DNA of 64,000 bases, from the NCBI GenBank assembly GCA_905178155.1, contig CAJINV010000002.1, forward strand, positions 2,440,162 through 2,504,161. The letters are read 5' to 3'. The stretch's first letter is position 1; every line of letters starts with the position of its first letter. Both the position numbers and the translations under genes were made by a program. Of the stretch, positions 350-64,000 are shown piece after piece. This stretch comes from Amoebophrya sp. A120. Taxonomy: Eukaryota; Protista; Dinoflagellata. The notes beneath the pieces were generated by a model. The model was given only the letters and a program-made list of their open reading frames with translations, made no database searches and had not been told where the DNA came from.

Positions 350-3300
350 CTAATCCATCGCATTCACATCTTCGTAAGAACTCAACGGAATTTTTTCATG
401 ACTACTCGCCTTCCCTCCCCCACCACCAGTACCTCCTACGACGGAAGCCTGCTTCACAAGCTTCTCCTTCTCTTTCACGACCGGAGGTGCGGCTCTAGTA
501 TTACAACTTGTTCCGGTCGTGTCTTCTTCACTTTTAGAAGTTGACATTTGTACTCCCTTAGCGGTTGAATCCGAACCATCACCAACCTTCGCGTTCTCCA
601 CGTCGTCCATATCGATTCCCCGTTCCTTCGCAACCTCTTTGATCCACTCGTCCATGGATTTTTTGTCGTCGCCAAACTGTTCGTATGCATTGCAAACATG
701 TCGGCGTCTGGAAATATTGCGAGATTTGTCGTGCTAGTCTGGCATTTGACTCTGAGCTCTGTATTGCGTGGCCACAAAGTAGAGTTCCACTGGTCTAATA
801 TTTATCATGCATCAACGCAGTTTCTCATGCGGACTACACAACACAGAGACACGAAAAAATCTGTCATGCTTGGCGGTGAATTAGTACAGTGTGCTTACCA
901 AATATAGCCGCCGGGGCGGAGGTAGTGAGGTTGTGGGCGTTTTCTTGCCGGCCATCGCCTTGGCCGCGGCCTTGCTTTTTTTGGGCTCGCCATGCCGCCG
1001 TGAGTAACGTTAGGCCGCACGGTATGGCGGCCGCTCGATAAACGTCGCAGCCTTTGGCAAATCTCCGAAATTCCTTTCCGAAAGCTAGCCCCCATGCTAT
1101 GGAGCCGATCCGGGCGCCACGGGGGGCGCCCAAAAAGCGAAGGAAAATCGGGCCCATAGCATGCGGATTGGCTTTGCGCGTCCGGGGCGCTTTTTCTTTT
1201 TCGCGTTTCTATATTTCCCTCCGGCGCTTTTTGCAAAGCTTCCCAGGCTCTGAAACCGGCGAAAAGGCGGCCGCTTTCGCGGCCGCCCAAAATGCTCCAA
1301 AATCGCGGCCGTGCCATGCTGTTTCGCTGTTCTGACTTTGGGCGAGTTTTTTGCGCGCCCCTTTTTGGGCGGCCCAAACCGCCAGAAACCAAGGCGGTGG
1401 GCGCCGCAGAAGGGCGCCCCTTTTGCCGGCTCCCCTGCGTCGTTTTATCAAGTGCGAATCGATAGTTTTCGACCGGGCTTGTTTGACTTCAAAGCCCCGG
1501 CCGCTTAATAATTGGAAATCTTTTATGTCAAAGAACGCTTCCGGCCGCTTGAAAACTGCCGGTCGTTTTTCAGGGTATATGTCAAAAAAACTCCCCGGTT
1601 AGAACCGTTCGGTGACCTCACTACATACTATTCGCTGACCTGCATTACAAGTTTCCAGGCGCCGACCACATATTTGCAATGCATATTTCGTTTTTCAACA
1701 AATGCTCGTTTTCCGGATCCTCCTCCAACCGCGGGATGGCGATCATGTCCTGCAGTCTCTGCATCTCCTCCTTCGTTTCCTTGGTGAAAATCGTCTCCAT
1801 CTGCTGTGTATGCATTACAAAAGCATCGCACTAGCACTACGTAGAAATCGCATGACAAATTCTGTGAAGAACAAAAGTGGGATTTGTAATGCTGAATTAG
1901 GTACAGAAACTAGATTTGTCATGCGCGGCTGCAATTTATACGTAGTACAATACTTCTGCAATGCATACTGCGTCGCGATCTGCTTCCACTGGCCCTTGTA
2001 GGTCTGTAGCAGCGCCTCCCGAATCTCGGCCACCAGTTCCACGAAAAAGGCAGAGGAAATTTGGTCGGTGTTGTCTGTGTACGTGAAGTTGGAATGCAAT
2101 CAACATACGCATGAGAAATAACCGCATCTGTCATGCACTGTAACGGCGCTATAGTACAAGTACCTGAAGAAAAAAACACAAAACCCTAGTACCTCTCTGC
2201 TGTCCGGGCAGCGTGGGTTGCGTCATCTGCGTGTAGTGCCCGGTGATGGACAGCTCTTCCAACGTCCGGAGTAACTCTACCAGCGGTGGTATTTGGTCAA
2301 ACACGATTTCGTTCAGGAACCGTCGTAATTTCAACAAATTATCCTTCCGGTGCGAGCGCATATCGTACCGCTGTCGGCACTATCACATGCAAATATGTCT
2401 GGGTCTGGAAAAGTGCAAGTTTGTGATGCTTGTCTGGCATGACTCTTAAATCTGTGATGCATGAGCAGGAAAAGGGCCTCTTGCCTGTGATGCAAAAACG
2501 CAGTTTGTCATGCGAAAAACGAAACACACTGCAGCGCAAAAACTTGTCATGCTGGGCTGCATATGGCAGTGCGCCCACAATTCGCAGATTTGCGTCACAA
2601 GTTTCATCCAGACCCAGACATATTTGCAATGCATAGGCACTGCGGGTCCATCACCAGGTTGTAAATCGTCAGCCACAGTTGGGAGGACAGCTTGGGAAGC
2701 GTGCACAGATCGTCCTCGTGGATCTGATACAGTAAAAATGTACGGAGCATTTGTCATGCTTAACAGACTGCGCTACTGAGCCCGGGGGGGTGCGGGGTCC
2801 GAGGGGTGCGCATTGCACAGCCCGGAACACCCGAACATGCCCCGCGACTGGCACAGGACCAGCAACGCAACTATTATCGTCGATCTCAGTTTGTCGATCA
2901 CAACGTAGCTGCGAAGCCGTCCATTCGAAATGCATACAGAAGCAAAGTATACGGAATGCATCCACTCTCGGAGCATGCGTCCATTCGAAATGCATCCACT
3001 CTCGGAGCATTTGTCATGCATACAGAAGCAAAGTATACGCTCCTCTGTGATGCAGCACGCTCATGCTGAATGACACAGAAACATTTCGGTAAACAAGAAC
3101 ATCAACCGCATAAACATCCTATACCACTTTCCACTCGTTTTTGTCGAACTTTTCGAATTCCCCTCGTCTCTTCCGCACCCAGGGCGCTTTTTCCATCAAA
3201 GGGACTAAGGTCAGCAGTACGTCGTGGTTGTCCAATAATCTCGTCGTCAACGTGATCGGCAAATGCTGTCGGTGGTCGGTCAAGTAGCGGCACACGTTCA

Positions 3301-4429
3301 ACGCGCTCATGCAGATTTGGAATTCGATGTCCTTGTACTGTTCGTCCAAGCACTCCACCTCCGATTTCGCCATGGCCTCCTTCGCGGAGCTCGTATGGGA
3401 GTGTCGGGATCGAAACCGTCAGAGTTGAAATAGTTTGTGATGCATAAAACGGATACTAGTTGGCGCCTAGTTTTCAAGTGGCGCATGACAAATTTGGGTG
3501 GAACTGATGAAATCCAGTTCGTAATGCTGTTTGGGTAAGGAAGACGCCTTTTGTCGTGCTACTTTAGCAGCTCAATTTCTACACCTAAACACGCTTGCAA
3601 TCTGCATCCCTTGCGTCCTCTGCAATAGGGGCAATTTTTGCGTTGCATTTTATGCATCACAAACTATTTCAACTTTGACGATTTCGGTTCTGACGCTTCC
3701 ATAGCTCGGCGGCCAGGAATAGAGGTCCTTGTTGGGCACTTGGACTAGGTAGGTCAGTTTGCGGTACACGTAATCCACCAGGTCGACCTGATAAAGTTTG
3801 ATAATCATAGATGAAAACTTGTCATGTAGAGGATCGAGGCAAAACACTATCCTAGACTGAACTTTATGCATGACAAACATCAGCACCTTCTTATGTAAGT
3901 AAATCTATACCAATGAATCCCCCGCCGTGTCGCAGGACTGGCTGTGGTAGAGACACATCTCCAGCAAGGAAATCAGGCTCGCTTCCGCGTACACCGGAAC
4001 GTAGGAGCGCAGGGAAGAGAGCCCGGCGATGTGTTCCTTGAAGAAGCTGCAGTCTTCGTTTGCAGATTTTTTCTTCGAGGAGGAGGAAGAACTCGAAGTA
4101 GATGACGCGCTAGAACTTGTCCCGGTCTTTGTCTTGTCCCCGTTGAAGAGGACAAATTCCTTCCAGGTCTCGATGGTGACCAAATTGTGGATCAACACCG
4201 GGATTTTCTCGTGCGTGTTGATCAAATCCACGATAAACTCATCCGTTTTGTCCTCCGCCTGGTAATGTGCCTGCGCGGAAAGCTTGTCGATCTTCTCGTG
4301 CTGGTTCAAAAAGTCCTTGTCCCCGATCTGTTCTAAATCGATCGGCTCGATCCCGTGCTCAATCCAGTGCTCGGCCTCAAACGGCGTCAGATCGACCGCC
4401 ACCGTCATCTCATCGATGTTGGAGGCCAT
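350..4429 (-). CDS. ZMYND10: ZMYND10-like dynein-arm assembly factor (about 563 aa, 8 exons), no MYND finger found
   Basis: Exons 4429-3911, 3787-3704, 3388-3125, 2723-2636, 2375-2193, 2074-1968, 1803-1686, 678-350 total 1692 nt and read as one open frame. GT-AG introns at 3788-3910, 2724-3124, 2075-2192 plus four introners. Recognisable segments: HEKIPVLIHNLVTIETWKE, DLVDYVYRKL, RLLDNHDVLLTLVPLMEKAPW, QLWLTIYNL, LLKLRRFLNE..DQIPPL. Confidence 0.8.
684..1685. mobile_element. Introner family B carrying a nested insertion (1002 bp)
   Basis: TIR tatgcattgcaaa(c/t)atgt; flanks gttcg/tttcg; removal gives KNE|QFGDDKK in frame. Confidence 0.85.
922..1624. mobile_element. GC-rich nested element with 10-bp TIR
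   Basis: gtagtgaggt (922-931) and acctcactac (1615-1624) are exact inverted repeats; abrupt GC shift; no TSD seen. Confidence 0.45.
1809..1967. mobile_element. Introner family G (159 bp)
   Basis: TIR tatgcatt(a/g)ca(a/g)aag; flanks ctgtg/ctgcg; restores IATQ|QMETIF. Confidence 0.8.
2381..2635. mobile_element. Introner family B (255 bp)
   Basis: TIR tat....tgcaaatatgtctgggtctgga; TSD ggcac; restores DPQC|RQRYD. Confidence 0.92.
2918..3040. repeat. Mosaic short repeats inside a canonical intron
   Basis: ccattcgaaatgcat x2, aatgcatccactctcggagcat x2, atgcatacagaagcaaagtatacg x2. Confidence 0.8.
3394..3703. mobile_element. Introner family A (310 bp)
   Basis: About 56-bp imperfect TIR tatgg.ag.gtc...gatgcataaaa; TSD gctcg; restores WPPS|SAKEAM. 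Confidence 0.93.
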
Positions 4430-4862
4430 GGTGTCGTGTGGATCAGGGTTACTGCAGCTGTTTGATGCGCTTTATCTTACGAGTCAATATGAAATATCTT
4501 CTGTGGTCTCGCGGCCAGAGTGTGACGCTTTTTCTAGATTGAAACGAAACCTCAAATGGGAGCTTTTTCTTGCTCTCGTAAGTTTTAGATCAATCTTCGA
4601 CGCAACATTGCCCTTGGAGGTTGATGATTTACTCCAGGATACCACGACACTCGACAGCTCTTCTGTAACTTTTAGTTCCACCGCGCAACAACACATCCAT
4701 CTCTCGAAGGCCTTCTGGGTCGTAGGGGTAAGAAGTGACCGGAGCGCAGCGGTTAATCGTCTTACCACCGCTACGACTACAGTCGAAATTTACTTACTCA
4801 CGAGAAAATCTCGCGAGACTACGCAGAACGCAACACATTCGCAGTGGGGGGCGACAACCTGC

Positions 4863-15357: not shown

Positions 15358-17228
15358 CTAGTGCTGCCGTTTCGGCGGGAAGTTGACCACTTTCGGTGCG
15401 TCCTTCGGATTCCTGGTTAATATCATACAGGTTTTCAAATCGCTGACCCCGCCAGTGGATCCCGCCTTGCTCCCCTCCTCGTATTTGTTCGTTGTGTCCG
15501 TATTCCTGCTCGCCACGTAAGTCGCCTTCCCGGTTTGTCGCAGCGCGCAGTACCGATCCCACTTGTCAGTGGTAGACCCGACACCACGGATATCACAGGA
15601 AAATAAAAGTGTGACATTTACACATCTGTTGGAGTTTCTGCATCACAAAGTTGCTCGCCATGGCAAACAAAACCTGTGATGCGCAATCAACTATAAGGGA
15701 AAACACGAACGGCATGAGGTTGGCAAGCATTTCGTGCATGACAGAGGTTGTCTGTTTTGCTTGTCTCCCATCAGGAGAGTGTGTAACTGTAACACTTTTC
15801 TCTCACCATAACGGAGGAGGAGGATGTTGTTGGACAGTTGCGAGGACAAGTTCTGCATCTCCTATCCCACGAAAAAACTGTTTCACTGTAAGGGTTTTGC
15901 AAGTTCTGCATCACAAGTTTGTTACACATGAGACAGAAAATTTGCCATGCGACCTTCCCAAAGGAAAACACGCTAAAAAATCCATTGTCTTGCAGGTGTA
16001 AGTAGCATGACAAATCGTTCCGTGCTCCATTCTCTGCATCACAAGTTCACAGTGAAACAGTTTTTTCGTGGGATATCTCCACCGGTGCGATCAATGCGGC
16101 CGAACCGTTCAGCAATTTCGCCTTGTAGTTGAATTCTTGTGGTGGCAGCAGCTTCTTCTTCTGCGTGATCCTCGTGAGGATCTTCGTGGGGACGGTCTGG
16201 AAGGGGATCTGCTTCCGGGTCTCCGCGGTAATGGAACCGCCGTCGATCAGAATGAGGAGGCGACGCCGTTGGTCTGATGAGGAGTAGTTTTGTAGACTTT
16301 ATTACGAATGCAATTCAATTTTTGCAACTTCTGCATGACAGATTGTGGCGGTTTACGCATTCCTGCATCACAGATCCAAAAAAGAAAACTATACCTTTCA
16401 AAATGATATCTTGCACTTCCGAAAACGGTAGTCTCCCTTCAATATCCTTCGCGACTGGTGATATTAGCCTTTTGATCTCTTTCTCCGTATAGCAGTGCGA
16501 CACTGCCTTCGGTAAAATTTCGTCCACGACCACTTTCACGGTGTCCTTCGGTTTTGGCTCGAAGAGTTGGTATCTGATAGAAAATTTTTTTGCGATTTTT
16601 ACATCACAGAAAGATCCACTCTTACCAGGTTTCGCATGACAAACTGCGGATGTTATGTTGTTGAGGGATAGAAACATTAATCCAAAACTCTACAGTAGTG
16701 TCTCGTTCAGCGACACAATCAGCTTCTTGATTTCGTGGTCGCACACTTTGTGTCTGTTGGCGCACCCACCCCGCAGAAACCCATTATCGTCTACCGGTCC
16801 GAAATGGCCGAACACATCCAACCTCCCCGTAGACTCGGGCTGCTCCAGTGTTGGGGGGAAGAGAAATTTGAAGAACGCATCCACCGGCACGCCCCGTATC
16901 CTCAGGAAAAACGTCCCCACACCAGAGTCAAGATGGGAAGTTTGCAACACAAGTCTCCAAGTTTTGGGAGTTATGCATGACAAGTTTCGCCTCGTAGTGT
17001 AATCCTGTTTAGCTAGCTAAGAAGCATCACAGATGTAGCACATCATTCTGATTGGAGCATGACAAATTCCGAAACACGACTAGGAAATGCCTCTCATGGG
17101 GCTCCGCATAAGAAATATTTTCAGCATGCAAATTTGCATGACAACTCTGGGGTGGGGACGTTTTTACTCAGGATACCCCGCTGCGACGCCTTGTCAGCGT
17201 GAATCTCGACTGTGCGGGTGGTGGCCAT
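15358..17228 (-). CDS. Hypothetical protein (about 300 aa, 6 exons) with an EF-hand-like segment
   Basis: Exons 17228-17176, 16891-16694, 16573-16395, 16273-16076, 15857-15811, 15585-15358 total 903 nt: MATTRTVEIH...YTEKEIKRLISPVAKDIEGRLPFSEVQ...KWDRYCALR...KRQH*. Two GT-AG introns and three introners. Confidence 0.8.
15591..15810. mobile_element. Introner family D (220 bp)
   Basis: TIR tat...aaaagtgt.aca.ttacaca; TSD acgga; restores LLLR|GVGSTT. Confidence 0.88.
15863..16075. mobile_element. Introner family D (213 bp)
   Basis: TIR tatcccacgaaaaaactgtttcactgt; TSD tctcc; restores APVE|MQNLSS. Confidence 0.93.
16897..17175. mobile_element. Introner family C (279 bp)
   Basis: TIR tatcct.ag.aaaaacgtccccac.ccagagt; TSD ccccg; restores SQRG|VPVDAF. 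Confidence 0.93.
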
Positions 17229-18486: not shown

Positions 18487-26318
<7,832 letters not shown>

Positions 26319-27388: not shown

Positions 27389-30224
27389 TTACTCCTGCAC
27401 CCCCACATACACCGTGTAGCCCGCGAACAGCAGAAACAAAATTCCCCCGCTCAACGCCACCTGCCGCTCCGTGATCGATTTCGCCAAAATCTTCCCCCCA
27501 ATCACCGCAAACCCCGTGCAAATGCTGTGCCCTATGATCGCACCCAGCGTTACCCCGTACGGGTTTTGCGCCGCTGCGAGCGCGATGGTCGCGATCTGCG
27601 ATCGGTCCCCCCATTCTGCGACGAAGGTGAGGATGAAGGACTGGGTCAGGATCTGCGGAGTGGTATCCTGTGTGAAAACGTCCCCGCCCCATAGTCAAGT
27701 TGGGAATCCAGCAACACAAATCTGCAAGTTTTGGGAGCTGTGCATGAGAAGTTTCCCCCTGCAGTGTAGTGCTGGTTGGCAAGGGAAGCCGCATGAGAAA
27801 GCCATTCTCTCATCCTGTTTACAGCATTACAAATTCCAAAACGCGACTGGCAATGCCTCTCATGCAGGTGCGCATTACAAATGCTCGTGTCATTGCGCAT
27901 TTGCATGACAACTCTGGGGTGGGGACGTTTTTACAAATGATAAGTGGTTTTCTGGTCTTTTGCTCGACTCCTCGGGGATGTTGCACTGGTTCCACTATTT
28001 CTCGCTCCCAAGGTACCTCCGCTGGGAGAAGCGCCGGGCTTTGAGTTCGTCAGTATCAAAGTTATGAGAGTGCATGATTTTTCCCCCGTTCCCTCCTTTG
28101 AAGTTGTGGTACACGAGCAGCAATAGAGGCAGTGTAGGTGTACTGCCTTCCGCATGACAAATCACCGCACTTGGATTGTAGTACTGCTTGGGGTTCCAAA
28201 ACTTGTCATGCTAGCAGTGCTTTCTACCTACGGGGTACGTAGATGTGGTTTGGCACCTTGCATCACAAACGAGAGAGAGTGGAATCGTGCACTTTCATAA
28301 GATCCCGCGGACTCGCAACGTCTGTGTTAGTGTCGGAACCGGAGGTGGAGACCATTTTCTCCCGATCCTCATCAACGTTGGACTCGCCGGCAGTTGTGCT
28401 CATGGAATCGACCTTTTTTCGTTGGATGGTGATTGTGTAGTGCATGCCAGACAGTAAATGCGGCTGCTGCATAGCATCACAAGTAGTTTTTGTCAACAAG
28501 AACGGCTTCTTCAAATTACTGATGCAAAAACTCCAAAGTAAAAACTGCACACCCATCAATCAATATCAAACCTCGCAAACGAGCAAGCCATAAATCACTT
28601 ACCCCCACAGCTTGGCTTTCCAAATCTAACCCGAATTCCGGATCCGTTGGCTTCCCGAGCGTGTGGCTTCCCTCCATCGACAGCGGGTCCGTCATTTCGG
28701 TCGCCAACCCCTTCTCGGCCAGCTCGTGCTCGACCTCTTCGAGCTCCTCCGACACCTCCTTGCCCTCGCCAGAAAGGTACATCTGTCTCGCGTCCAACAG
28801 CATTTTCACGCCGAAGTAAAGGAGGAGAACCACCGAAGCCCAGTGGGTGAGGACTTTAGGAAGGAGGTGCGGGACGGCGTGGCCCAAAATGGCGGAGAGA
28901 ATCTTTTAAGTGTGACGATCATTTTTTTTGCATTCCAACTTCATTACCCATCATGTTTTGCATCACAGCATGACAAAAAGAAAAAACAACAGACACTCGT
29001 CCCTGTGAATAAAACAAAACCCTCAATAACCCATACCGTCATCAGCGCCAACGCCCCGATCGCCCCGGAAAACACCACTATTCTCGGATTGCTCATCGCC
29101 ATAACCGCTGCGATGAAAAAGGTCCTATCGCCGATTTCCGTGGCAAAAATCATCCCGAGCGCGTTCAGAAACGCCGAGGAAAATCCGCCGTCTGCCTGGT
29201 TTTTTTCCAAAGTTGCTAGTTCTTCCGCGGAAACTTGCCCCAAAGCGGCCGCTGCGTAGCCGTTTTTGATCTTTGCGTCTTCGTGTACCCGTTGCTCAGT
29301 GTCTTGCTCGAGGTTTGTTTATGCGTTGCAAATATGCCTGGATCTGGGAAGTTGTCATGCTAATACATGAATGGCAAGATGACTACAGTACAACGCAGCC
29401 AAGCATGACAAATTTTTCAACAGCACTGTGCTGCGTAATACGCATGAGAAGATGCGTTTTTGCATGACACAGCACCGTCACCATTCCGCAACGCGCATTA
29501 CAGAGTTTCGGTTTCGGGGCATGCGAGGTCAGCATTAGAAATCTGGCACACTTCCAGACTCAGACATATTTGTATTTGATATTGTTTTTGCTGATGCAAT
29601 ATTTACCTGCTCGTTCTCCTCCAGTATTCTCCGCCCGGAGGGGCCGATGTTGATATTTTCGTCCTCTAGATCGTGGAAGAAAACGGAGGGGGTGCTGCTC
29701 GGATCGTCTGTTTTCCTGCTAGGTTGAACGATGCTACCTACTTCCTCGGACTCGTCTCTCTGCTTTTTCCGAACTGTTTGTTTGTGCAGGCTGGTAGAAG
29801 ATGATCCTTGGCCTTGTTCTCTCGTGCTAGTCCTTGTGCGTTTCTCATTTTGGTTTTGGTTTTCTTCTTTCAGCTTCTGTTTTGCTAGGGCGCTGGCGTC
29901 TTCGCGAAGAAGCTTCCGGTTGAAGTGAAGCTGCAGGCTGTCGCGCAAGACTTCTTTCTCTGCTGATGTTTCCGCTGCTGTCAATACACTTCTTCCGTGC
30001 TCCGCTGCAATGCTGCCTTTTGCGTGTTGAGTTTCCCCCGAAGAAGACGATGTTGCTGCTGTTGTTCCTGCTTTTATCGACTTCGCGTTGTGCATCAGAC
30101 TGTGCTCCTTGTCCTCCGATCCTTTTACCGCAACACAAACGGCGGCGCGAAACACCGCACCGCACATCAGCCAGCTCTGGCGGCGAGCGGCCATGGTTCT
30201 GTTTTTTGTTTTGCTGAGAAACAA
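27389..30224 (-). CDS. GDT1: GDT1/TMEM165 (UPF0016) Ca2+/Mn2+ transporter, about 590 aa, 6 exons
   Basis: Both family motifs present: ATEIGDRTFFIAAVMAM and FVAEWGDRSQIATIALAA. Exons 30224-29582, 29314-29037, 28902-28603, about 28466-28300, 28057-27943, 27658-27389. The start may instead be the second Met. Confidence 0.9.
27664..27942. mobile_element. Introner family C (279 bp)
   Basis: TSD agtgg; restores QKTT|PQILTQSF. Confidence 0.92.
28063..28299. mobile_element. Introner family E (237 bp), degenerate TSD
   Basis: TIR tatga.agtgca.gatt; removing the element plus 5 nt gives SPRDL|ILTNSKP in frame. Confidence 0.7.
29320..29581. mobile_element. Introner family B (262 bp)
   Basis: TSD ttgtt; restores ASAKT|NLEQDT. 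Confidence 0.9.
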
Positions 30225-30573
30225 ATGCTTTCACCCTGCTCAGTGTCCGGACTCTTTCCCTACTTGTCGGACTTGTTCAGATGTAGTAGATTCACGGTTG
30301 CCTCAGGGTAGGCAGAGATAGCACGGCTACTCTGAAACAAGAGCTGTAGAACCAACCTCAGAAAATAAGTGGTCGAAGCACTACACATCTGTTTGTTCAC
30401 CTAAATTATCGCACCTCTAGCTCACGGCAAGAAGAAGTTTTCAGAAGACGGGGGGCACACGACACGCACTTACACATATGACGAGACGAACATCATCGAA
30501 GAGCCGAACGCACAATGTCTGCGCGCGCCCACGGGTGGACGAGCAGAGACTACACCGAGTAGACTATCGATAC

Positions 30574-34082: not shown

Positions 34083-37000
34083 TCAACTTTCCCCCGCGAT
34101 CGCCATCGCCACATCGTAGTCATCCGGCGGTGGAAAGTGGTCATCGTCATACTGCTGGTGTTGTTCCCCTTGTGCTACTAGCTTTTCAGCATCACAACCA
34201 GCCACTGTAGCTCCTTTCGCTTCATCGTCCTGCTGGTTACTTGAAGAAACTATTTGTTGATCATCTGCTACTGCATGGTCTAGATTCAGTGGTGGCAACA
34301 AACCTCGGCGACCAGGAGCTTATTGAGAGGAAAAATCTCCCCTCCCCATATTGAAAAGGTATGTTTCCAAAAATTTGTGTAGCGCATTTGAGGTCACAAA
34401 TCACATCTGTCTTGCAAGAAGACAAGGGCAGAAGCTTCCGCCCCATTATGAAAGCGATTTGTCATGCTGTTGGGCCCAAAGGGGGGACGTTTGCCATGCT
34501 GAAATACTAGACCCATACGCCCCTACCTAGCCCGGGGATCTGACCGCAATGCTTTCCTGCAATACAAATCTGATTTGTGTACTCAGATCCAGCATCAGAA
34601 ATTTCGTTTTGATATGGGGAGGGGGGATTTTTCCTTTTGATAGAGCTGTTCCTCCTGTCATCGCAACTCCCGGCGTGGTGTGCGGCCTACTATTCACCTC
34701 GACATCCAAAATCTCCGCGTCCGTTGGGGAAATTGTCACCGTCATGGCGTTGTCTGGCGACCTGGTTAGCCGCGTTATTTCTGTTGCAGTTCCTCCTACA
34801 TTTTGATCCGCGGCGAATTCGGGTAGCAAGTGCGGGGGTAGCATGAACTCTTCCTCAAACCCGACCAAATCCGTCGCCTGACTCTCGGCTTGCAGTGACC
34901 GGGAATTGAGACTAAGATTTGGTTCTTTCTTCTTCCTATTCCCTCCGCCGGCACTCATCCAATTCCCCGGCGTTGTGTTCGGCCTTCTGGTGTCAAGGGA
35001 GGAGGAATAGGAATTCGTTCCATTTCGGTAACTGTCATCATGATTCATTTTCCCGCTCGCAAAGGGTGTTTTCCCGCCATTTCCGCCGTTCAATTTCTCA
35101 ATCATCGCGACCTCGTACGCCGGCCGCTGCTTCAATATGACAGTGCACAACTCCCCCTCCGCCTCGTTTGTAATGCAAAATCCGAAGTCCTATCGTTGCG
35201 ATGTCGATGCGGCACGGTTTGCATGACAAATCTTGGGAGCTCAAACAGCACGACGCTAGGCGCATCAACTTGTCATGCGCAGGCTCTATTTGAGCTGGTG
35301 GCTGTATTGCTGTTCATGCCATACAAATGAGGGGGAGGGGGACGAGTTGTGCACTCTCATATTCAACTTCAACCCGCCGCGACTAGCGAAGGCGCGGAAC
35401 CGGCGGTAGTCGGAAACGGAGATCTATGGATTGCAAAAATGTCTGGGTCTGGAAACTTGTAATGCTGCGTTGGAAATAGTGAATGCTCTGTAATGCACAG
35501 CCAAGCATGAGAAATATCTGCGCTTTTTTGTGTTGCGTTTTTCGCATGACAAACTGCTTTTTTGCATGACAGGCAAAAGGGTCTCTTCTTGGACACGCAT
35601 CACAAACTTTTTGGTCATGCCAGACAAGCACGACAAGTCTCGCAATCTTCCAGACCCAGACATTTTTGCATTTGATAAGATCTTGTTCTTTTCCAACGCG
35701 TGTTTTAGTTTGAAATCTAATGACTGAACGTTGGACTTTTTCAATTTCAAAAACGTTTTGCTGTAGCCGGCGGAATTCAGCAAAGGATTCGCGGTCAGTT
35801 TGCGGTTTGATACAACATCGGTTGTTGTATTCATCCCTGGAAGATCGTAGGAGTGAATTTGCTGGTAGTAATCCACTTGCTGCTGATGAAGATTATCCTG
35901 CAACTTATCGTAGTTGTGCTGGCCGAAGACAAATTCCGTTGTTTGCAAGAGATTCTTGTCCTTCTGCTTCTGGTTCCATTTCGACCGGGGCGGGGTTAGA
36001 TGCCGGTGCTGGGAATTACCATGGGGGTGTTGGTCCTGATTTGTTCAGGAAGAAAAATTGACTGAAGTTGCGATTATGCTGCTAATGTAAGTAGTCGAGA
36101 ACAGGCATGAAAAAAAAATGCGTGATCGTACAGATTCTGCATCACAACAAACACTAAAGACACGAAAACTATGCAGCAGTACCAGTCTCCCTCGGTGCAC
36201 GGACCCCAACATCAAACTTGGATCCGTCATGGAATTGTAGCTCCAATTGAAAGCCCCGGCACTCCCTAGATGAGCATGGTCCTTCTCGTAGTCTTCGCTG
36301 GAGATCAGGGACAAAGAGTGAAGGTGATTCTCCCCCAAATCGTAGATCAGCGACTGGGATAAGGATTCCAGCTGCGTGCTCAATTTTTTCCCGGTTGCGA
36401 CGGTTCCGTTCTTCCGCATGCGCATCCTGTTACCCTGCTCCTCGTGCTCGTCCCGAAGAAGTTGGGACCGGAGGGACGGGTTAGAAGGCGGGGAGAGGAG
36501 TTTTTGGTTTTGCTGCTGCTGCTGTTGTAGTGCTGCGGTTCCGTACAACGGTTTGATAGGGTCGAGTTTGTTGTTGTTTACAACTCCATGATACGCCTGA
36601 TTATTATACACCCGCCCCGTCACCGGATCAATCTCACCACCCCCTTCCACTCCAACCAATTCCCGTGGTGACCTCGACGCCGACCGACTCCGCCGGCTTT
36701 TCGACGTGGTTAGAGAGTTGTTCAAAGAGTCTTCCTGTCCACTACTAGACGGTCTTCCTTCCGACAGCCGCTGATAGACCGCTGATCGGTCGTTCGGATT
36801 ATGCTTCTCCCGCTCGAAGGTGGTTACTGTGGTGAGCACGCCGAAAGGGGGCTGGTGGACGTGATTGTGGGAAGAGATGGTGTTTGTCACGATTGTGGTG
36901 GTCGTCGGGGAGCCAGAAGCGGAGGCGGAGGCCGAGGCGGAACTACTATTCACACCGTCAACCGTCGTAGAAGCGGAGTTGGAACTAGAGGAGGAATTCG

Positions 37001-42818: not shown

Positions 42819-45800
42819 CTAGGCCGGCGATTGCGGCTGTTGCTGCTGCGTTGGTTGCTGCGGAAGTTGTGGCTGCATTTGCTGCTGCTGCACTTGAGCT
42901 GCTTGCGCTGCTGGAGCCACTGGAGCTGCTTGTGCTGCTGGAGCCACTGGAGGTGCTTGTGCTGCAGGAGCTCCTGCAGCTGCTTGTGCTGTTGGAGATT
43001 CTGGAGCTGCTTGTGCTGTTGAAGCTCCTGAAGCTGCTTGTGCTGTTGGAGCTCCCGGAGCTGCGGAAGATGCCTGTTGCGCTGGAGCTCCTGCAGCTAC
43101 TGGAGTTACCGGAGCAACCGGAGCTCCTGGAGCTACTGGTGCTGCTGCTCCCGTTCCTTGATCTTGTTCTCCCATTGCTTCGCTAACTTTTTGTGCCGCA
43201 GCAATGCCGTTCACGAGTGGCCCCACAGGAGTAAGGCCGACCACCGCCGATAGAGCTGGATCGCTTTGTACTGCCGCTGCCGCTTTTCCTAGACCGTTCG
43301 CTGCCTCTGTGACTGTCAGTGCAGGCTTTCCACCACTTTTTTCCCCCGCCAATTCTCGTCCAAATTCCAGCACCGAGCGGGCGCCGCCCCGCTCACCGTT
43401 TCCATCTATCTTCTCTGCTCGACGCCTCCCTCCGTCACCCTCTTTTTTTCCCTCATCCGCCGCACGGACGATCTTCTCCCCTGAAATAGTTTCCATGTAA
43501 GAAGACGAAGAACTGCTCCTGGTGGAGGATACATCCTGCGAGCTGAAACCACCAGCACTCTCCTGTCCCCCAACCCGCTCCTGACCGGCCAGCCGCCGAT
43601 CGCCGGACCTCGTCTGCAATTCACTCAGCTTGCGTTCTTCCAATGTAGAAATGCTTCTCCCGTCAGCACTTCTTTTTCCGTATTCTGCGCCCGCGCTTTC
43701 TCCCGATACTCGTTCGATTGGTGTTGCCGGTCGTGCTGGTGCGGCTTCGTTGGAGGTGGGAGTCGGAGAAGAAGCAGTCGTTTGGGCGAAGGAAATGGAA
43801 GGCCCTTCTTGATTTTTGTGGGCTTTCAGATCCCGCTGAACCCTGTGCACCTGGTCTTGAAGCTTATCCACATCAGTCTGCAGCGCCTCCTGATTTAGTC
43901 CCTGCTTGTGCACTTCTGACGCCACTTGAAATTGCTTCTGCTGCATTTGCCGCATTTTCTCCGCCTGATCTGAACCTTCATTTGGTGGTGGTGGTCCCGC
44001 CGCTTGTTGCTGCGATACCCCTCGCGGCGCTACAGGTTGCTTCGGCGTCGCTGCCGATGTGGCCGGCGCACCTGCAGCCGGTGTCGGTGGCGCAGCTGCA
44101 GCCGGTGTCGGTGGCGCAGCTGCAGCCGTTGCTGGTGGCGGAACTGCAGCCGATGCCGGTGGCGCAGCTGCAGCCGGTGCCGGTGGAACCGCCGTGGCAG
44201 GCTGTGGTAGTGCTGCATGCTGCGGCATCTGTGGTGCCACTTGCGGTCCTGAGTGCGCGGCTGCTGCTGCTGCACCTTGTTGGAGCTGCTGCTGGTGCTG
44301 CGGCGCCGGCGGCTGAGAATTTGCCCGCGGCGCGGCCCCGGCCGCCCCCGGGGGCGCTGCACTTGCAATGGGGATGGGTCCGGCAGGATTCCCCTGAGGT
44401 TGCTGTTGTGCCAGCTGTTGCGCCTGCTGTGCCTCTTGCAGTTGCTTTTGCTGCAGCCACAACCCTTGACTCGCTGATGTCACCTTCTCTTTCCCAACTT
44501 CTACCATCGAACCACTGCCCCCCTCGACTTTTCCATCCTCCTCGCCAACTTGACCACCACCTCTTCCACCAGCCCCAGATTCTCCCTTTTCCGAGCCTGC
44601 CATTCTTTCCCCCGAAATCGTCTCCATGTAAGACGAACCAGCCGACGATCCACTGCTCCCAGACAATCGCGAGTCCAACCGTTGATCCTCCCTTCCCCCA
44701 TCCACCTCCCGGCCGACCGGAATCCGATCCTGCCCCGGTGGCGGCAAGGGAACTTGAGCTTCTTTCTGTCCGCCAATGTAAAAATTCTTCTCCAGGTTCT
44801 TCTTCTCCTCGTTCTGCTCTCCCGCCTGCAAAGTCGACGCGGCGGCGGCGGCGGCGGAATTGCCCGTACTGGTGGAACCGATGTTTTCAGAGGGGGGCAT
44901 TTGTTCAGGAAGCTGAGGGCTGGGAGGTTCTGAACCGCTGCGAGCTTCTTGAACAGCCGCAGCTTCTTCTTCGGTCGCGGACGGTTTGTTCTGATCGACT
45001 TTCAATGCGGTTTTCTCCTCCTTTTCCTCCGCCTTTATTTTCGTGGAGGTTTCACTTGCTTCGTGAACCTCCTTCTTGGTCTCAGTTCTTCCAAGTTGCA
45101 CACTACTGCTCTTGCTTTCCTCCACTGACAGTTGTGCATTTCCAGTTTTTCCGTTTTCCAATCCCGGGTTTTGCACAACATCCTCCTGCGCGCCATCAGA
45201 CTTCACCTTTCGCCGCTCGGCTTCCAATTTTTCGAGCATGCTGGCGCTCAACGTCGATTCGGTATCACGATGGAAAATGGATTCCCTTCCGCAGGTGTCC
45301 TCGTCATTTTTGGTCATGCGTCAGTCGTGATACAACAGGAGGACCCGAAGTTGAAAAAGCATCACTTCAGTTTCAGACCCAGAAAGATGTGATAGATCTT
45401 CACAACTTCATCTCGTCATGCATACCACTGCTACCTAGGACATACAGCATCAGAAACAGCAACAGGTTTTGAATTTCCGCATGACAAACGATGACAACTT
45501 CAAAAGGGAATATGGAAATTAAATTCTACATTCCATACTCTTCCTCATCGACCGCGAAGTTGGGACCACTTGCCGAATCACTCGCCCTCCCAACTGCACC
45601 AACCGCTCCCGAACGAGAAGAAGCACCAGCGGTAGCGGAAAAATCAGAGCCATTTTCCATCGCAGAACCCCCGATTCCGCCCAACCCCGTACTCGTTCCG
45701 GCCGCCGGGGCACCATTTTCAACAGTTGTAACGCCAGTTCGACGCGATTTCGACTTTTCCCCCTTCTCAAACTCTTCCGGGGCGAGAAAATCGGTGTTTT

Positions 45801-51650: not shown

Positions 51651-54600
51651 TCAGCCGTGAAACTTCGAAGGGATCGGGCCATCACGAAACTCCTCCCTCG
51701 TTGTTTTGGGAACACATTTTCCTGAATCGGCACAACGGGCCAGCGCAGGGCGACACAAGCAGCGCTGAAGATAACAAAAAGACCTCTCTATACCGAACTT
51801 CTCCTTCGCAGCCTTCGCGGCATGCTCCACATCTCCCCCCGCGTTCTCCGCGGCGTCGACCTCTTCCCGGACAAACCGCTTTCTTTCAGCTGCAAGTTTT
51901 CGAGCCTCGACCTCTTTCTCGATAGCGGCCGGGTCCACTTCCTTCTTGGCGGGATCTTGCCTTTGTATTTCTACTGCAATGTCTGCAGCGAGTCCCTTCA
52001 CCTCAAAGTCCTCCAGGTCGGCAAGCCCTCTGCCGTCGTCTTTTTGCCCCGCTTTTTTGGCCGCTTCGTCAATACCCTTCGCAGCTCGTTCTTCCTTCCG
52101 AGCCCGCTTCGCAGCTCGCTGGGCCTGTTCTTCTGGGGTGACGGGGCCGTCAACATCCGCTGCTTCATCACTGTCCTCGTCATCACCGTCGAAGGCATCC
52201 AAAATGTGGTCCGTGAGCTTTGGGACGAGATGTTCTGCAGCTGCACCAACGAGAGCGGGCCCGACAACTGCACCAATGGCCGCAAGTGCTGGAAATGGCT
52301 CATATGACCCCTAAAACATTCCGCTCTGAGCCTGTGCCCTATTCGGTCTTTCTCTTTGCGTGGTTGTATTATGATATCACATTGAAAAACAAAGCTCTGA
52401 CGTCGGGCTCGGGTCAATGCAAACGAAGAAATCACGTGATATAACAGCTGGAGCCGCCGCGAACAGCTGCGTCCATCGAGGCCAAATTAAAAATGGACCA
52501 AGCTCTACTGTACTTGACAAAAAACACTCCAGGTCTAGCCACCGTCGTTGGATGCAGAAGACAAACTTTGTATAAGCTACTTTCCTGCAGAGTCTTCGTC
52601 TTTTCACGCACAGACATTTTTCCTAACTTCACGAGTCGACAAATTGCTTTCGCAAAAGTACGAATCCAGCAGCACCGACGAATCGCCAATGCGAAAGTAG
52701 AATGTGAGGTTGTTTTTCTTGTTTTTATTTTCTCTATGCTCCTATTACCACTGCACAAGCTGAGAGGGAGGACGAGTAGTGCTTTCTTCCAGTAACTTCA
52801 TCTTCTCTTCCAAAAACGCGTTGTCCTTGGCCGTGGCCGCCGCTCCCGTGGTCGTCGCAACCAGCTATGGAACCAAAACCATTTCCCTGGCACTGCAGCT
52901 TTCCACAAAAAACACGATTGACATGTAAATTTGAAAGGGTGAGGGACACCAGTTGCCAATGTCATGATCCTGACAAGCACATCGAATCGTAGGACACACC
53001 ATGCATCTGCGAGAAATTTTCCTTGATTTGATGGCATCAGCAGGTTTTATCCAACTGCGCCTGCGGCTGATACAAATACGCCGCATCATCGAGGACCAAT
53101 TATACACCGCCTTGCCCGCCCGGCAACACTAGGCTCAACGATTTTACATGTAAAACCGGCGTTCCGGTAGTCCAAGGGACCACGAAGTCGGCTTTTCTAC
53201 ATCGCAGAATCTAAAATTGGAAAGAGCAGGAAATCCGGTGAAAAGGTTTCAATCCTCGTAACTCGCCGTCAGCGGATTTGTCGGTCACGTCGTCCAGAGG
53301 TATCAAGAGGAAAAAACCGCACAAATGCCGCCAGGAGTCCATTGATTTCCGTTCGTGCTGTCGTTGGCTTTTTGAGGTGTGCGCGATAAAATTGAAAAAC
53401 CGAACAACACATGAAAAATTAATACACACATACTGCACTATCTCTATCTTCATGCAAAGACTCGGTCTTGATCACGACAGCAAAAGATCCTTTCCTGCGT
53501 TGTTGCCTTGCCTTCTACATCCGACCACCGCGGAGGTGACACGAGAACAACAATACCTACGACGTGTACGTCGTTCACCCGCTCTCGACCTGAAGCTCGC
53601 ATAAAAATCGTTTCTGTTTCAAGCCGGGATCGGCGAAAACACCGAAGATGCAACGACTTCCACGAGGACCAGTCAATGGGGGCGGGCATAAGTTTTAGCA
53701 CTACAGCTGTAGTCTTTCCCATATCAACCGCGGCGGGTTCTTGCTCGTGAGCAGCAGCAAGGGGCGCGGCCGTCTTGGTCGTGGAGGGGACGGTTTCGGT
53801 GAAGGAGGACACTTTCTTGTTCTTGTTGGCGTGGTAATCGCTCGCAGCTGTATATTTTTTTTCTTGAAACATAGAGGTCACGACTTGATGAAAGCAGTGA
53901 TTTCCTTCCCTGGCGAAGGCACATCGCTATGATAGGCACATAAGTACTTTGCCGGGCTCTCAGTCCGGAATATTCCTCTCGGGCAGAAGCAAAGCCTAAC
54001 GGTATGCGAGGAATTGTCTTCACGTACACTGTATCGAAGACGGCGCTAGACCTAGAAACGTAAGAAAAGCAAGATATGTACCTTGCGCACCCACTGCCCC
54101 CATGAGGGCCGCGTTCGGATTGTTCGCGGCCCATTGGTCGGCCTTTTTCTGAGCCACTTGGCGAAGCACTTCCCCCCCAATTTGTTGACCGGTCTTCAAG
54201 GCCCCCTGCAGTGCAGGAATGATCGAACGAAACACTTCCTTACTTGCTCGCATGCGTTGATGATATTGACACTTTTCCTTCAACAAGGAACTTTTCATCT
54301 ACTTGCCCTACATCTAAAAGAACTGGCGCGCAGCAAAGCTGTGCCTTTTTAACTTACACCGGCGCAACATAAATTCGACGCACCTCTTTAATTTAACTAC
54401 ATCGCTCTGTCGGCAATTTTCAACAGGCATAAACAATGCGTCCCAGCATGCGAAGCAGAGCAAAGAGTTCCTCATCATAACCATCGCCCCGTTGTTACCT
54501 CCACCTTGTTGTGGCGCTTCGCTTTGTTGGGCGGCGGAGGCTTTGCCGCTTTCCTTGCCCTTGCCGACGGCGTTCGCTTCGGCTTCTTTTTTGTCCGCTT

Positions 54601-54718
54601 CCCCCTCCGCAGTTTCCAGAAACCCGTCCGCGGCGTTCACCGGGAAGTATGCAGTGGAAAGACCGGCCACAGAAATCATTCCCCCATCTTTTCCTCTTTG
54701 TACCCATCGATTTGTCAT
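51651..54718 (-). CDS. Exons of a multi-exon hypothetical protein (boundaries unresolved)
   Basis: Protein-like segments at about 54490-54630, 54080-54300, 53720-53880 and 51794-52305 (EPFPALAAIGAVVGPALV...KAAKEKF followed by a GTATAG donor). May be the 3' part of the gene starting at 57813. Confidence 0.5.
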
Positions 54719-56869
54719 GCTAAACAGGAGTACGACACGCCTTGTGTCATGCTGTTCACGGTGACTACATGACAGACATCAACAACGTTGTAAATCCGCC
54801 TCTATGCCTCTCTGTCGTAGGAGGCTCGGAGGACAAGCCACGCATTCCAACACGTGAAGCTGGCGTATCAGAATCACAACTGTTCATAGCAATGTTCACA
54901 AAAGAGGAAGAAGGAACCCACGACGTACAGCTTTTCCAAATTCATATCTTCCCCGGCACCGCACCCGCGCCGTCGTTTGCAGCCGGCTGGCGTATAGAAC
55001 TGGAAAATTTTCATCTCGCAGTAACAACTCAAAATGTACCCGACGGAGCAAACTTCAGATCCGGAACACTACCAGGCTGCTTTCATCTCAATGCAATGAA
55101 TCACTTATTGCACAATTTCAATGCAAGGAGAAGGAGCCACGCATGCCAAATTCGAGTATAGATGAAGAAAAATTTTCCACATTCCGTAAGTTCCACCGCA
55201 TTGTCGGTCGGAGCGCTTATATCGAGTTGAAAACTGCCTTGACTATACAGCATCAGATTTTTTTCCTTCTAGTTTGCCATGCATTCTCCACCGGGAAAGA
55301 AGCACAGACGCGTCGCCTTGCTCATGCGACGTGCCGCGCCTGCACATAGGGCTACATCATCATTTTCTGCAGAATGAATGAGGTCATTCCACGGCTTATC
55401 TTCAGGAGAGATATTTCTGGTATTGGCATGAGTAACTCCATTATCGATGCAGAAGAAGTCTCAACAACTGTCGTGTGTTGTAAGTCCGGAGCAATTTTTT
55501 CAACCTGATAACTCTCGCCGGCAGTCTGCGCGGTTTGGGCAGCGGAGTCGTCGATAATGTATGGAGAGGAAAATTTTGTCTGTTTTTTTTGTTTTTCTTA
55601 TATACGCTTTCGCTTTTCCTCTTGTTCCCGCAACACCTCCACCACGGATGGAGCAGGTTCATCTTGTTGTACTTTACACAGCTATAGAAATTTCCGGTAC
55701 TTAGGTAAGATTCAGGGATGTTACACATGTGTTGTCAATGCCACATAAGGAACCAGTGAAACATCAAAATCTTTCCCGCCATATCGGACCGGCGGCAGCC
55801 GCAACAGCTCCTTGTTCAACCGGCGGAGTATGGTGTGGAAAAATTTGACGCAAAAAAACGGTTGGATTTTTTCTTCCTTTTGTACCAGCTAGAAGCAGCT
55901 TCTACGCTGCAGCTAGACAAATGATACTGTAATTGTTCTGTCATTTTTCGGAGATTTCTATCACCCATAATTTTCCTGACCAGGGCCAGTAAGTTCAAGA
56001 CCCAGTTGTAGGGGGCTCATCCACCATTATCTTGAAAAAATTTGCATCTATTTGCATTCCAGCGCTATTTCCAGCATGACAAATCCAACAGCTTATTTTG
56101 ACCCAAATTCTTCCCTACCGTACTGCGTGGTCGCCGCCGTCAAGTCCGTCGCCGGTGCGGACGCAGCCTTGCCGCCCTTCTATCAAGCTGAAAAAAGCCG
56201 CTCTTCTGATGCATTTTTTGTCTTGCATGTAGGACCATGCTGGTATTTCTGCATACGGAGCTGCTACAGTAGTAGACAATGAATAAGTAGTACTCTGATC
56301 AGTCTGCATTGTGGCCAACGAGCTGTGTCCGCATGACAGATTAGTAGTGATGTCAGCATGATTGTGCACCAATGCTGAACATCGCATGACAAATCACGTG
56401 GCAAAACAGAAGGTGGTTTTTCAGTTCCATATGTCCTCGAAATCGTACATGGCCTTAGGTTCCAGAAATTCCGGCATTTTCGTGGCGTATCGAGTGCAAA
56501 CACAGAGTGGCATAGGTGGACTAGTATGTACTTATCTAGATCTACCACTGTGGTAGTGGTGTTACTCCCTCCACCTCCGGTGACAAAAAAAATCACTTTC
56601 TCACGCAGGCATCTTCCTCAGGCTTGCTAGGTTACACATTCACGCCTTTCAACATAGTTTGAATTTGTCATTGACGAGGCGCGCGTGTCCGAAGAGCACA
56701 TGCACAACGGGCCCGCATGAAAAATTGGCTCAAGATTTCAGCCGCGCGTATTCCTCTTCTAGCAGCACTTTTTACCCATTTCTTTATGCAGAGAACAGCA
56801 AGAGAAAAGACTTCCGTCACGCTGACATTCCTACTCTATGCCCTCACAAAGTTTTTTGCGATTTCATAC

Positions 56870-57813
56870 GATCCGAGCGGTCCCCGGATTGGTGCGGTCG
56901 ATCAGGGATTCCCCGAGCTGTTTTGATTTTTTTTTTTTGCGTAAAAACTAGGTACTGCCACTTCTGCATCACAAATCCTTTCTCCAATGCAGTGATTCGC
57001 ATGACAAATCAGAGAAAAACAAATACTACCATGCGGCGTATCAAGGAAGACTGGGAAGCACCCGCGAGGACCACGCAAATCACGTATCAAATGCAAATAT
57101 GTCTGGTAGTGGGTGGAGGATGAGTGCAAAAACATGATTTACCTTGCCGAGTCTTGCATGACAGAGCAGTGTCTTGCACGACAGACACGCATCACAAACT
57201 ACTCGCGTGTTGTTCTTGCGAGCTGTTGCTATTCTGCCGTGCTTTGCATGACAAACTCTCGCCGGTCCCACCGCGAAAGAGAATAAAGCGGTTGCGGTCG
57301 TAGTCGTTCCTATTCATGCATCACAGATGTTGTTCCTCTTCACCTCTTGCATCACAAACCCAGACCCAGACGTATTTGCGTTGCATATCACGACGCACAG
57401 GCCGACGACGACGATGCCGTAGCGGTTGCACCGCGCCTATCCTGTGTAAAAACATCCCCACCCCAGAGTTGTCATGCAGATCTGCAAGCACAAGAGCGTT
57501 TGTAATGCGCATCCCGATGAGAGGCATTTCCCGTTGTATTTTGGAACTTGTAATGCTGTAAACAGGATATGGAGATGGATTTGTTATGCGGCTTTGTTTG
57601 CTAAACTGCACTACACTACAGCCTACAATTTGTCATGCGTGCTTCCCAAAACTTCAAGGTTTGTGTTGCAAAGTCCCCAACTTGACTCTGGTATGGGGAC
57701 GTTTTTACACAGGATAGCGCCTGCGACTCCTGCTGGAACTTGAAGCCACTGGTGCTTCCCGCGGGCATGGGGTTCTCCGCGTCCTTCTCTTTGATGTCAA
57801 TGACCTTCGCCAT
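56870..57813 (-). CDS. 5' part of a TM-AGASQS family gene
   Basis: MAKVIDIKE...ESQA|RCNRYGIVVVGLCVV|ICVVLAGASQSSLIRRM|LGESLIDR, through two introners and GT-AG intron 56918-57029. Downstream exons not resolved. Confidence 0.72.
57085..57387. mobile_element. Introner family B (303 bp)
   Basis: TSD tcacg; splits a TM helix LCVV|ICVVL. Confidence 0.9.
57438..57716. mobile_element. Introner family C (279 bp), inverted relative to 16897 and 27664
   Basis: TIR tatcctgtgtaaaaac.tcccca; TSD gcgcc. Confidence 0.94.
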
Positions 57814-63978: not shown

Positions 63979-64000
63979 TATCCTGAGGAAAAACGTCCCC
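63979..64000. mobile_element. Start of a family C introner (cut by the window edge)
   Basis: tatcctgaggaaaaacgtcccc matches the family C TIR. Confidence 0.8.

What the first reader, a model, noticed from the sequence alone, without database searches (positions are those of the whole stretch)
2075..57029. One motif, GCAT(G/C)ACAA, marks all introner families and also the canonical introns
Seen: GCATGACAA/GCATCACAA and close variants (GCATGAGAA, GCATTACAA) occur repeatedly on both strands inside every family (about 8 variants in 35425-35677). They also occur in GT-AG introns with no TIR: 2075-2192, 2724-3124, 3788-3910, 16274-16394, 16574-16693, 19385-19548, 25388-25508, 28903-29036, 36036-36182, 56918-57029. 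They are sparse in exons (exceptions near 40225 and 41015). Inference: either the canonical introns, many 112-135 nt, are eroded introners, or the motif is a maintained strand-symmetric intron mark bound by a protein on DNA or paired RNA.
Basis: partly seen in the sequence, partly recalled or inferred. Interest (0 to 1): 0.78.

Follow-up and report, generated by a model that had tools for sequence, protein, structure and literature searches.

The report
Introner motif survives in ordinary introns
In the marine parasite Amoebophrya A120, a nine-base motif carried by nearly all transposon-made introns examined also sits intact, often as a pair about 33 bases apart and facing either way, in a subset of short ordinary GT-AG introns, which are likely older transposon-made introns that kept a DNA-binding site after their other transposon features decayed.

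Summary
The window is Amoebophrya sp. A120, whose introners are published. The motif is real: 84 exact hits against 1.4 expected. It is in 26 of 30 TIR introners and 10 of 13 GT-AG introns, with 0 hits in 20 kb of intergenic DNA.

It does not mark all canonical introns. In a second assembly only 13 of 56 predicted GT-AG introns carry it exactly, 25 with one mismatch. Carriers are short, often start GTATA, lie in introner-dense regions and show same-direction pairs 30-35 bp apart, like introners. They keep no TIR, target duplication or homology, yet their motif is as intact as in young elements, which neutral erosion does not explain.

Both orientations occur, and some spliced introns lack the motif, so a branch point, a paired-RNA mark or an essential splice signal is unlikely. 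Best reading: a double-stranded DNA binding site inherited from an older introner wave and kept in place.

The scan already noted the motif inside introners on other A120 DNA.

The parts
2075..2192 (-). GT-AG intron, 118 nt; two one-mismatch motif copies in opposite orientation; no exact copy
   Evidence: my spliced model equals deposited protein P0001, 563 of 563
2724..3124 (-). GT-AG intron, 401 nt, donor GTATAG; all three motif copies read GCAUSACAA in the RNA; a 17-bp direct repeat (2743 and 3003) ending at the motif brackets a 260-bp interval, likely a later insertion
3788..3910 (-). GT-AG intron, 123 nt, donor GTATAG; exact motif at 3868 plus an inverted variant 49 nt away
16274..16394 (-). 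GT-AG intron, 121 nt, donor GTATAG; same-direction pair of one-mismatch copies 32 nt apart
   Evidence: reading-frame support only
16574..16693 (-). GT-AG intron, 120 nt; exact motif at 16634
   Evidence: reading-frame support only
19385..19548 (-). GT-AG intron, 164 nt, in an ABC transporter gene; three same-direction copies (39 and 31 nt apart), exact at 19430
   Evidence: (transcript piece boundary and length arithmetic)
22045..22158 (-).
   Evidence: (adjacent transcript pieces 22044/22159)
25388..25508 (-). GT-AG intron, 121 nt; two exact copies at 25432 and 25451
28413..28602 (-).
28903..29036 (-). GT-AG intron, 134 nt; exact motif at 28968
36036..36182 (-). GT-AG intron, 147 nt; same-direction pair 34 nt apart, exact at 36139
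   Evidence: reading-frame support only
56918..57029 (-). GT-AG intron, 112 nt; two exact copies 33 nt apart (56966, 56999)
   Evidence: (RNA joint)
62885..63072 (-). GT-AG intron, 188 nt, with NO motif even at one mismatch: counter-example
   Evidence: (RNA joint)
35425..35677 (.). Typical TAT...ATA TIR introner with 5-bp target duplication; 8 motif variants on both strands (one of 30 such elements curated in the window)
57434..57717 (-). Spliced TIR introner whose six motif copies are all antisense to the usual canonical-intron orientation
54644..56869 (-). Run of seven old non-canonical introns: target duplication randomised (10 of 35 bases match), end hairpin partly kept, no family homology; exact motif in 3 of 7, one-mismatch copy in 6 of 7; 55556-55784 has none

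Best explanation
GCAT(G/C)ACAA is likely a double-stranded DNA protein-binding site that belongs to the A120 introner system, and the short GT-AG introns that carry it are likely an older generation of introner-derived introns in which the paired site has been kept in place after the TIR, target duplication and the rest of the sequence decayed. SHOWN: the enrichment; conservation across unrelated families; both orientations; same-direction pairs about three helical turns apart; the same extended context in both intron classes; restriction to a subclass of canonical introns (short, donor GTATA, introner-dense neighbourhood); no TIR, target-duplication or homology relic; a motif more intact than neutral decay allows. 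INFERRED: descent from introners; binding on DNA; selection after insertion; and that the bound protein gives the host some benefit, most likely helping the intron be recognised during transcription. That help would not be essential.
For: Canonical 6.3 exact hits per kb against 0 intergenic and 0.11 exonic; second assembly 1.70 against 0.19 and 0.05 per kb. Same-direction spacing of 30-35 bp in 13 of 23 pairs, null mean 1.85, 0 of 5000 randomisations reach it; one centroid per TIR family peaks at 31-33 bp, 39 of 183, with 10.5-bp periodicity p=4e-6. Flanking T at -10, -4/-3, -1 and A then T after the motif are shared by both classes. Exact-to-near-match ratio is 19 of 36 in short canonical introns against 0.40 in young elements; simulated decay gives 0.21 at 15% and 0.07 at 30% divergence (p=3e-5 against 0.21). 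Carriers lie among 1.13 TIR elements per kb against 0.47 for non-carriers (16 and 31 introns, p=7e-4). Old non-canonical introns with randomised target duplications still hold exact copies at the family-typical position 41-42. Canonical-intron bins sit at single-copy DNA depth of 43-71 against 20,000-314,000 for TIR bins, so they are not young copies. Farhat et al. (PMC7789003, section 12) report that 24.8% of strain-specific intron positions in A120 are canonical, so derived canonical introns exist.
Against: No direct relic proves descent: target-duplication match is 1.96 of 5 against 2.25 for non-carriers, and end complementarity in register is 6.68 against 6.54 for cross-intron controls. 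The two direct tests for selection after insertion were inconclusive: the target-duplication clock did not track age, and coding against intergenic copies gave p=0.12 with n=20. Spliced introns without the motif exist (62885-63072, 55556-55784). Pooled canonical introns show a mild strand skew, 41:23, p=0.03, and the motif is slightly more base-paired than in-place shuffles, 0.69 against 0.62, p=0.004; a pure DNA site predicts neither. Canonical spacing peaks at 32-34, TIR spacing at 31-32, and 10.5-bp periodicity in canonical introns alone is not significant (p=0.18, n=20). The 56 introns of the second set are predictions without RNA. The element library covers well under 1% of the genome, so extinct or unsampled parent families are possible.
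Confidence: 0.45

Rival explanations
1. The motif-bearing short GT-AG introns are a separate, TIR-less mobile class (GTATAG...CAG, about 110-150 nt) moved by the same motif-binding machinery. The motif is kept only by selection for mobility and has no host role.
For: Distinct donor GTATA in 13 of 28 carriers against 1 of 32 non-carriers (p=1e-4; second assembly alone 9 of 16 against 1 of 31). Narrow size. Spacing mode differs from that of TIR families. No target duplication. TIR-less, duplication-less introner families exist elsewhere (PMC9860276, passages).
Against: To keep the motif this intact under neutral decay the copies would need to be within about 10% of their source (inference). Yet there is no extra DNA depth at 90% identity, no family among 378 pairs, and no conserved columns beyond GTA and the motif.
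Confidence: 0.2
2. The motif is a host intron mark gained independently by ancient introns. Introners spread because they captured it.
For: No transposon relic in carriers. Motif intact. U1 snRNA was not detected in A120 (PMC7789003, section 10), so extra intron-definition signals are plausible.
Against: 31 of 56 canonical introns lack it entirely. Carriers cluster where introners are dense and copy introner spacing, including the inverted 49-bp pair.
Confidence: 0.15
3. The motif acts on RNA, as a branch point, a single-stranded protein site or a paired stem.
For: The variable base falls at the N of a U-N-A-Y branch-point-like core (consensus recalled, from no call). Window skew 11:2, pooled 41:23. 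Slightly raised predicted pairing.
Against: Skew not replicated (9:6 and 22:18; 39:39 in the unfiltered set). Distance to the 3' splice site ranges from 22 to 170 nt. A spliced introner has only antisense copies. Both orientations are present in only 6 of 37 carriers, and same-direction copies do not pair with each other.
Confidence: 0.1
4. Neutral erosion: these introns are dead introners and the motif is a leftover with no current role.
For: Motif density falls from intact elements (7.2 per kb) to eroded non-canonical introns (2.5 per kb). Fungal introner-like elements decay into regular introns (PMC3609843, abstract).
Against: At the divergence where BLAST detection starts to fail (30-40%), simulation leaves 0.06-0.19 exact hits per kb; short canonical introns have 5.3.
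Confidence: 0.08

Closest known systems
Introner elements / non-canonical introns of Amoebophrya sp. A120 (Farhat et al. 2021, PMC7789003; Gozashti et al. 2025, PMC12130899)
   Same: Same organism. TIR elements start TAT + about 7 nt + AAA, are about 250 nt, carry short direct repeats and lack fixed splice dinucleotides.
   Different: No internal cross-family motif appears in the sections, passages or supplement text that I searched. The paper's 15% of canonical introns with inverted and direct repeats are a different class: the carriers here have neither.
Fungal introner-like elements that degenerate into regular spliceosomal introns (Collemare et al. 2013, PMC3609843, abstract read)
   Same: Proposed path from mobile intron to ordinary intron by loss of length and sequence identity.
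   Different: There the decayed copies become indistinguishable from regular introns. Here a paired 9-mer survives and tags the likely derived class.
Subterminal repeated motifs of MITEs bound cooperatively by transposase (Lemi1/Emigrant, PMC1636448, abstract read)
   Same: Short repeated internal sites, as conserved as the TIR (8.6% against 9.2% mismatch), in non-autonomous TIR elements.
   Different: Here the sites are spread through the element, shared across 96 of 98 families, and persist in TIR-less single-copy introns. No binding protein is known.

Membership tests
A120 introner elements (TIR elements of the window) | Inverted repeat starting TAT, about 7 variable bases, then AAA | tested here: met
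   (profile of 334 elements in exons)
A120 introner elements (TIR elements of the window) | Short direct repeat at the boundaries | tested here: met
   exact 5-bp repeat in 286 of 351 well-paired elements; the finder required at least 3 of 5 matches
A120 introner elements (TIR elements of the window) | Repeated in the genome and removed from RNA | tested here: met
   DNA depth of 20,000 or more; 13 non-canonical joints
A120 introner elements (applied to motif-bearing GT-AG introns) | Terminal inverted repeat | tested here: not met
   6.68 of 20 against 6.54 for cross-intron controls; duplex -8.2 against -8.4 kcal/mol
A120 introner elements (applied to motif-bearing GT-AG introns) | Target-site duplication | tested here: not met
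   1.96 of 5 against 2.25 in motif-free introns
A120 introner elements (applied to motif-bearing GT-AG introns) | Homologous copies elsewhere | tested here: not met
   single-copy depth; no family or motif-specific library similarity; library is a small sample of the genome
Decayed introner-derived spliceosomal introns | Lineage-specific (gained) intron position | not testable with these tools
   no A25 or other Amoebophrya genomic DNA held; only orthologous proteins
Transposase-bound subterminal repeats | Conserved like the TIR within families | tested here: met
Transposase-bound subterminal repeats | Bound by the cognate transposase | not testable with these tools
   needs a binding assay
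Spliceosomal branch point | Sense strand only, at a narrow distance from the 3' splice site | tested here: not met
   both strands; 22-170 nt from the 3' end

The most novel reading that the evidence does not exclude
A120 marks its gained introns on the DNA. A protein bound to a helically spaced motif pair, first a transposon docking site, has been domesticated to flag introns for co-transcriptional splicing in a lineage where U1 snRNA was not found. The mark outlives the transposon and tags both hairpin and GT-AG introns.
Probability: 0.22. Interest if true: 0.88.

Novelty: new variant of a known kind. Interest (0 to 1): 0.56.

Why it matters
How introners turn into ordinary introns, and what share of ordinary introns came from them, is hard to test because decayed copies lose all trace. 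Here a 9-mer pair would act as a lasting tag: it sorts A120's canonical introns into two classes that can be checked directly against the published A25/A120 intron-position map. The motif is also a concrete bait for finding the unknown protein behind mobilisation or splicing of these introns. If the site is kept for splicing, it would be an intron signal read on DNA and not on RNA.

Tried and rejected
1. Sense-strand RNA element or branch point: suggested by the window's 11:2 skew, not replicated, and position variable.
2. Target-duplication decay as an age clock in young families: flank divergence did not rise with duplication mismatch, so it was uninformative.
3. Faster motif decay in intergenic copies: 8.8% against 6.8%, p=0.12, n=20 against 318. 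Inconclusive.
4. Regional concordance of motif orientation: p=0.054 in the second set, 0.01 with the window, 0.27 in a broader set, 0.77 for TIR elements. Unresolved.
5. 'TA' at -6/-5 as a TIR relic: 5 of 12 in the window, 0 of 16 in the second set. Rejected.
6. Hidden homology among carriers: top pair z-scores of 4.6-6.6 rested on low raw scores (27-36) and were not inspected one by one; motif-free introns exceeded shuffles against the library as much as carriers did.
7. End complementarity at 3' offsets 6 and 9 (z 2.8 and 2.1 among 12 offsets, with one at -2.8) was treated as noise.
8. No whole genome was held, and loci could not be extended by handle.
9. No hits in viral contigs.
10. Raw-read runs X9 and X10 laid almost nothing on the window, so there is no lariat or strand information. 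No listed holder is on record as RNA; X1-X4 are treated as RNA because they skip introns.
11. No earlier scan note on A25 motifs.
Full report
IDENTITY. The first exon of the gene at 420-4429 matches a deposited Amoebophrya sp. A120 protein at 100%, with an A25 orthologue at 58%. My spliced model of that gene translates identically to the deposited protein, 563 of 563 residues. The element ends (TAT, about seven variable bases, AAA) match section 11 of Farhat et al. 2021 (PMC7789003). The introners themselves are therefore known.

ANNOTATION, BUILT WITHOUT THE MOTIF. A finder based on ends and flanking repeats gave 28 candidate elements. Transcript-like contigs gave 15 listed joints in 54401-64000, with 6 more not shown (X2-X4 are one sample), and spliced pieces over 17.7-30.1 kb. 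Reading frames gave the rest. The curated set is 13 GT-AG introns, 30 TIR introners and 12 eroded non-canonical introns. Six ambiguous stretches (2,641 nt, 1 exact hit) were set aside. Support for the 13: listed joints for 56918 and 62885; adjacent pieces for 22045; piece boundaries plus length arithmetic for 19385, 25388, 28413 and 28903; the deposited protein for 2075, 2724 and 3788; frame only for 16274, 16574 and 36036. All 13 non-canonical joints fit one register, 1 nt + TAY...ATA + 4 nt; one of them ends ATC instead of ATA.

OBSERVATION. There are 84 exact hits against 1.40 expected. By class: exons 3 in 27,340 nt; canonical introns 13 in 2,053; TIR elements 58 in 8,018; eroded introns 9 in 3,535; intergenic 0 in 20,413. 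Introns with an exact copy: 10 of 13 canonical, 26 of 30 TIR, 6 of 12 eroded. With one mismatch: 12, 29 and 10. The RNA-supported GT-AG intron 62885-63072 has none. In the window's canonical introns the motif read UUGU(C/G)AUGC in 11 of 13 exact cases (p=0.02).

INDEPENDENT SET. A pattern scan returned 162 loci, all from one public assembly with the same introner families. They hold 578 kb after merging and none is orthologous to the window. I ran a gene finder with motif positions set to neutral on the 59 merged loci of 2 kb or more (516 kb). After retraining on those loci it recovered 12 of the 13 window introns exactly (its starting model came from the window). A filter tuned on the window passes 13 window calls: 12 curated introns and one call in an ambiguous stretch. 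Of 229 GT-AG predictions in the loci, 58 passed and 2 introner-like ones were dropped. Of the remaining 56, 13 have the exact motif and 25 a one-mismatch copy; shuffles give 0.16 and 4.75. Strand counts were 9:6 and 22:18, so the window's skew is not replicated; pooled counts are 20:8 and 41:23, p about 0.03. Other filters for introns up to 200 nt gave 14-22% exact; introns of 200-400 nt gave 3 of 33. These loci were picked for holding an introner, so the genome-wide share may be lower.

THE CARRIERS FORM A CLASS. Introns up to 150 nt carry the exact motif in 15 of 29 cases, longer ones in 8 of 40 (p=0.009; loci alone 8 of 20 against 5 of 36, p=0.046). The donor is GTATA in 13 of 28 carriers and 1 of 32 non-carriers (p=1e-4; loci alone 9 of 16 against 1 of 31; nine introns with a single one-mismatch hit were left out). 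Same-direction copies lie 30-35 bp apart in 13 of 23 pairs (null mean 1.85). TIR family centroids peak at 31-33 bp and show 10.5-bp periodicity, while canonical introns alone are too few to show it (p=0.18). The extended context is the same in both classes. Carriers sit among 1.13 TIR elements per kb, non-carriers among 0.47 (p=7e-4). Presence clusters by locus (p=0.023, loci only).

NO TRANSPOSON RELIC, BUT AN INTACT MOTIF. Carriers show no target duplication, no end complementarity beyond composition and no family or motif-specific library similarity. Eroded non-canonical introns do keep their end hairpin (-18.5 against -11.2 kcal/mol). Bins holding only canonical introns lie at single-copy depth in a DNA-like run. 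Within 14 TIR families of six or more members, motif positions differ from consensus at 8.6%, flanks at 20.7% and the terminal 30 nt at 9.2% (14 of 14, p=1e-4; terminal conservation is inflated for the families used as bait). Random decay of 250 elements leaves 1.4 exact hits per kb at 15% divergence and 0.19 at 30%. Short canonical introns have 5.3, with an exact-to-near ratio of 0.53 against 0.40 in young elements. BLAST finds 50 of 60 pieces mutated by 30% and 9 of 60 at 40%, but with the source in the library, so this is best-case power. Seven old spliced introns with randomised duplications (10 of 35 bases match) keep an exact copy in 3 cases, two of them at the family-typical position.

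LEVEL OF ACTION. Both orientations occur. One spliced element has only antisense copies. The distance to the 3' site spans 22-170 nt, and 6 of 37 carriers hold both orientations. Same-direction copies are predicted not to pair (1 of 20 reach 3 bp). Together with the roughly three-turn spacing this points to double-stranded DNA (inference). Against it stand the mild pooled strand skew and a small excess of predicted pairing. The motif is not required for splicing, since at least two introns with listed joints lack it (62885-63072 and 55556-55784).

MECHANISM. Most likely (0.45) an older wave of short introners left introns that switched to GT-AG ends and lost hairpin and duplication, while a DNA-binding protein kept the paired site under selection. 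The benefit to the host is unknown; help with co-transcriptional intron recognition is my best guess. Rivals: a TIR-less mobile class (0.20), a host mark gained by ancient introns (0.15), an RNA element (0.10), neutral leftovers (0.08). The two direct tests for selection after insertion were inconclusive, and intron age could not be tested.

LITERATURE. PMC7789003: abstract, sections 10, 11, 12 and 16, 12 of 40 passage hits, and supplement text searched ('GCAT' 0 hits); its figures (splice logos in Fig. 3, Figs S14-S25) could not be seen and may bear on donor classes. PMC12130899: passages, and 12 of 14 supplement files searched with 0 motif hits. PMC9860276, PMC11282704 and PMC12005148: passages. 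PMC1636448 and PMC3609843: abstracts. Library searches showed no report of the motif in this organism. Roy et al. 2023 (Curr Biol) was seen only in reference lists. Earlier scan notes on other A120 DNA already describe the motif, its 32-bp pairs and helical phasing inside introners. None of those shown covers canonical introns.

VERDICT. What is new is a subclass of short canonical introns tagged by an intact introner motif. New variant of a known kind, interest 0.56.

Noticed in passing
window 2743-3019: A 17-bp direct repeat ending exactly at the motif brackets 260 bp inside the canonical intron 2724-3124, with further local duplications. This looks like an insertion that landed on the motif. 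L032 6764/7607 shows a 46-bp repeat ending one base past the motif.
   Followed up: partly
window 684-1690: A TIR introner swollen to about 1 kb by a GC-rich insert, still removed in the deposited protein model.
   Followed up: partly
window 54644-62794: All 13 non-canonical RNA joints fit one cut register, 1 nt + TAY...ATA + 4 nt (one ends ATC), including introns whose target duplication is gone.
   Followed up: yes
canonical introns, window and loci: Both classes have U-rich 5' ends and A/C-rich 3' ends with no polypyrimidine tract, the reverse of the composition at TIR ends; donors are mostly GTAY.
   Followed up: partly
window; L018; L034; L036: Motif orientation in canonical introns tends to agree within a locus (p=0.054 loci only, 0.01 with the window) but not in TIR elements or a broader set.
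   Followed up: partly
window 54219-57717: One short gene carries at least 11 introns, with exons of 25-50 nt between most of them; most are old non-canonical introns.
   Followed up: partly
window 30598, 32276, 33425: A roughly 30-nt sequence repeated three times in an intergenic stretch, seen by eye; possibly a retroelement remnant.
   Followed up: no
window 12420-12620 and 13660-13860: A GC-rich intergenic duplication, seen by eye; no exact motif in the region.
   Followed up: no
window 45286-45538 and 41797-41931: The reading frame requires introns here, but the boundaries are ambiguous between GT-AG and eroded-TIR readings; excluded from counts.
   Followed up: partly
window genes: All modelled genes lie on the minus strand. 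Pfam: ABC transporter (18.5-26.3 kb), GDT1 (27.4-30.2 kb), weak DXD glycosyltransferase hit (7.2-11.6 kb).
   Followed up: yes
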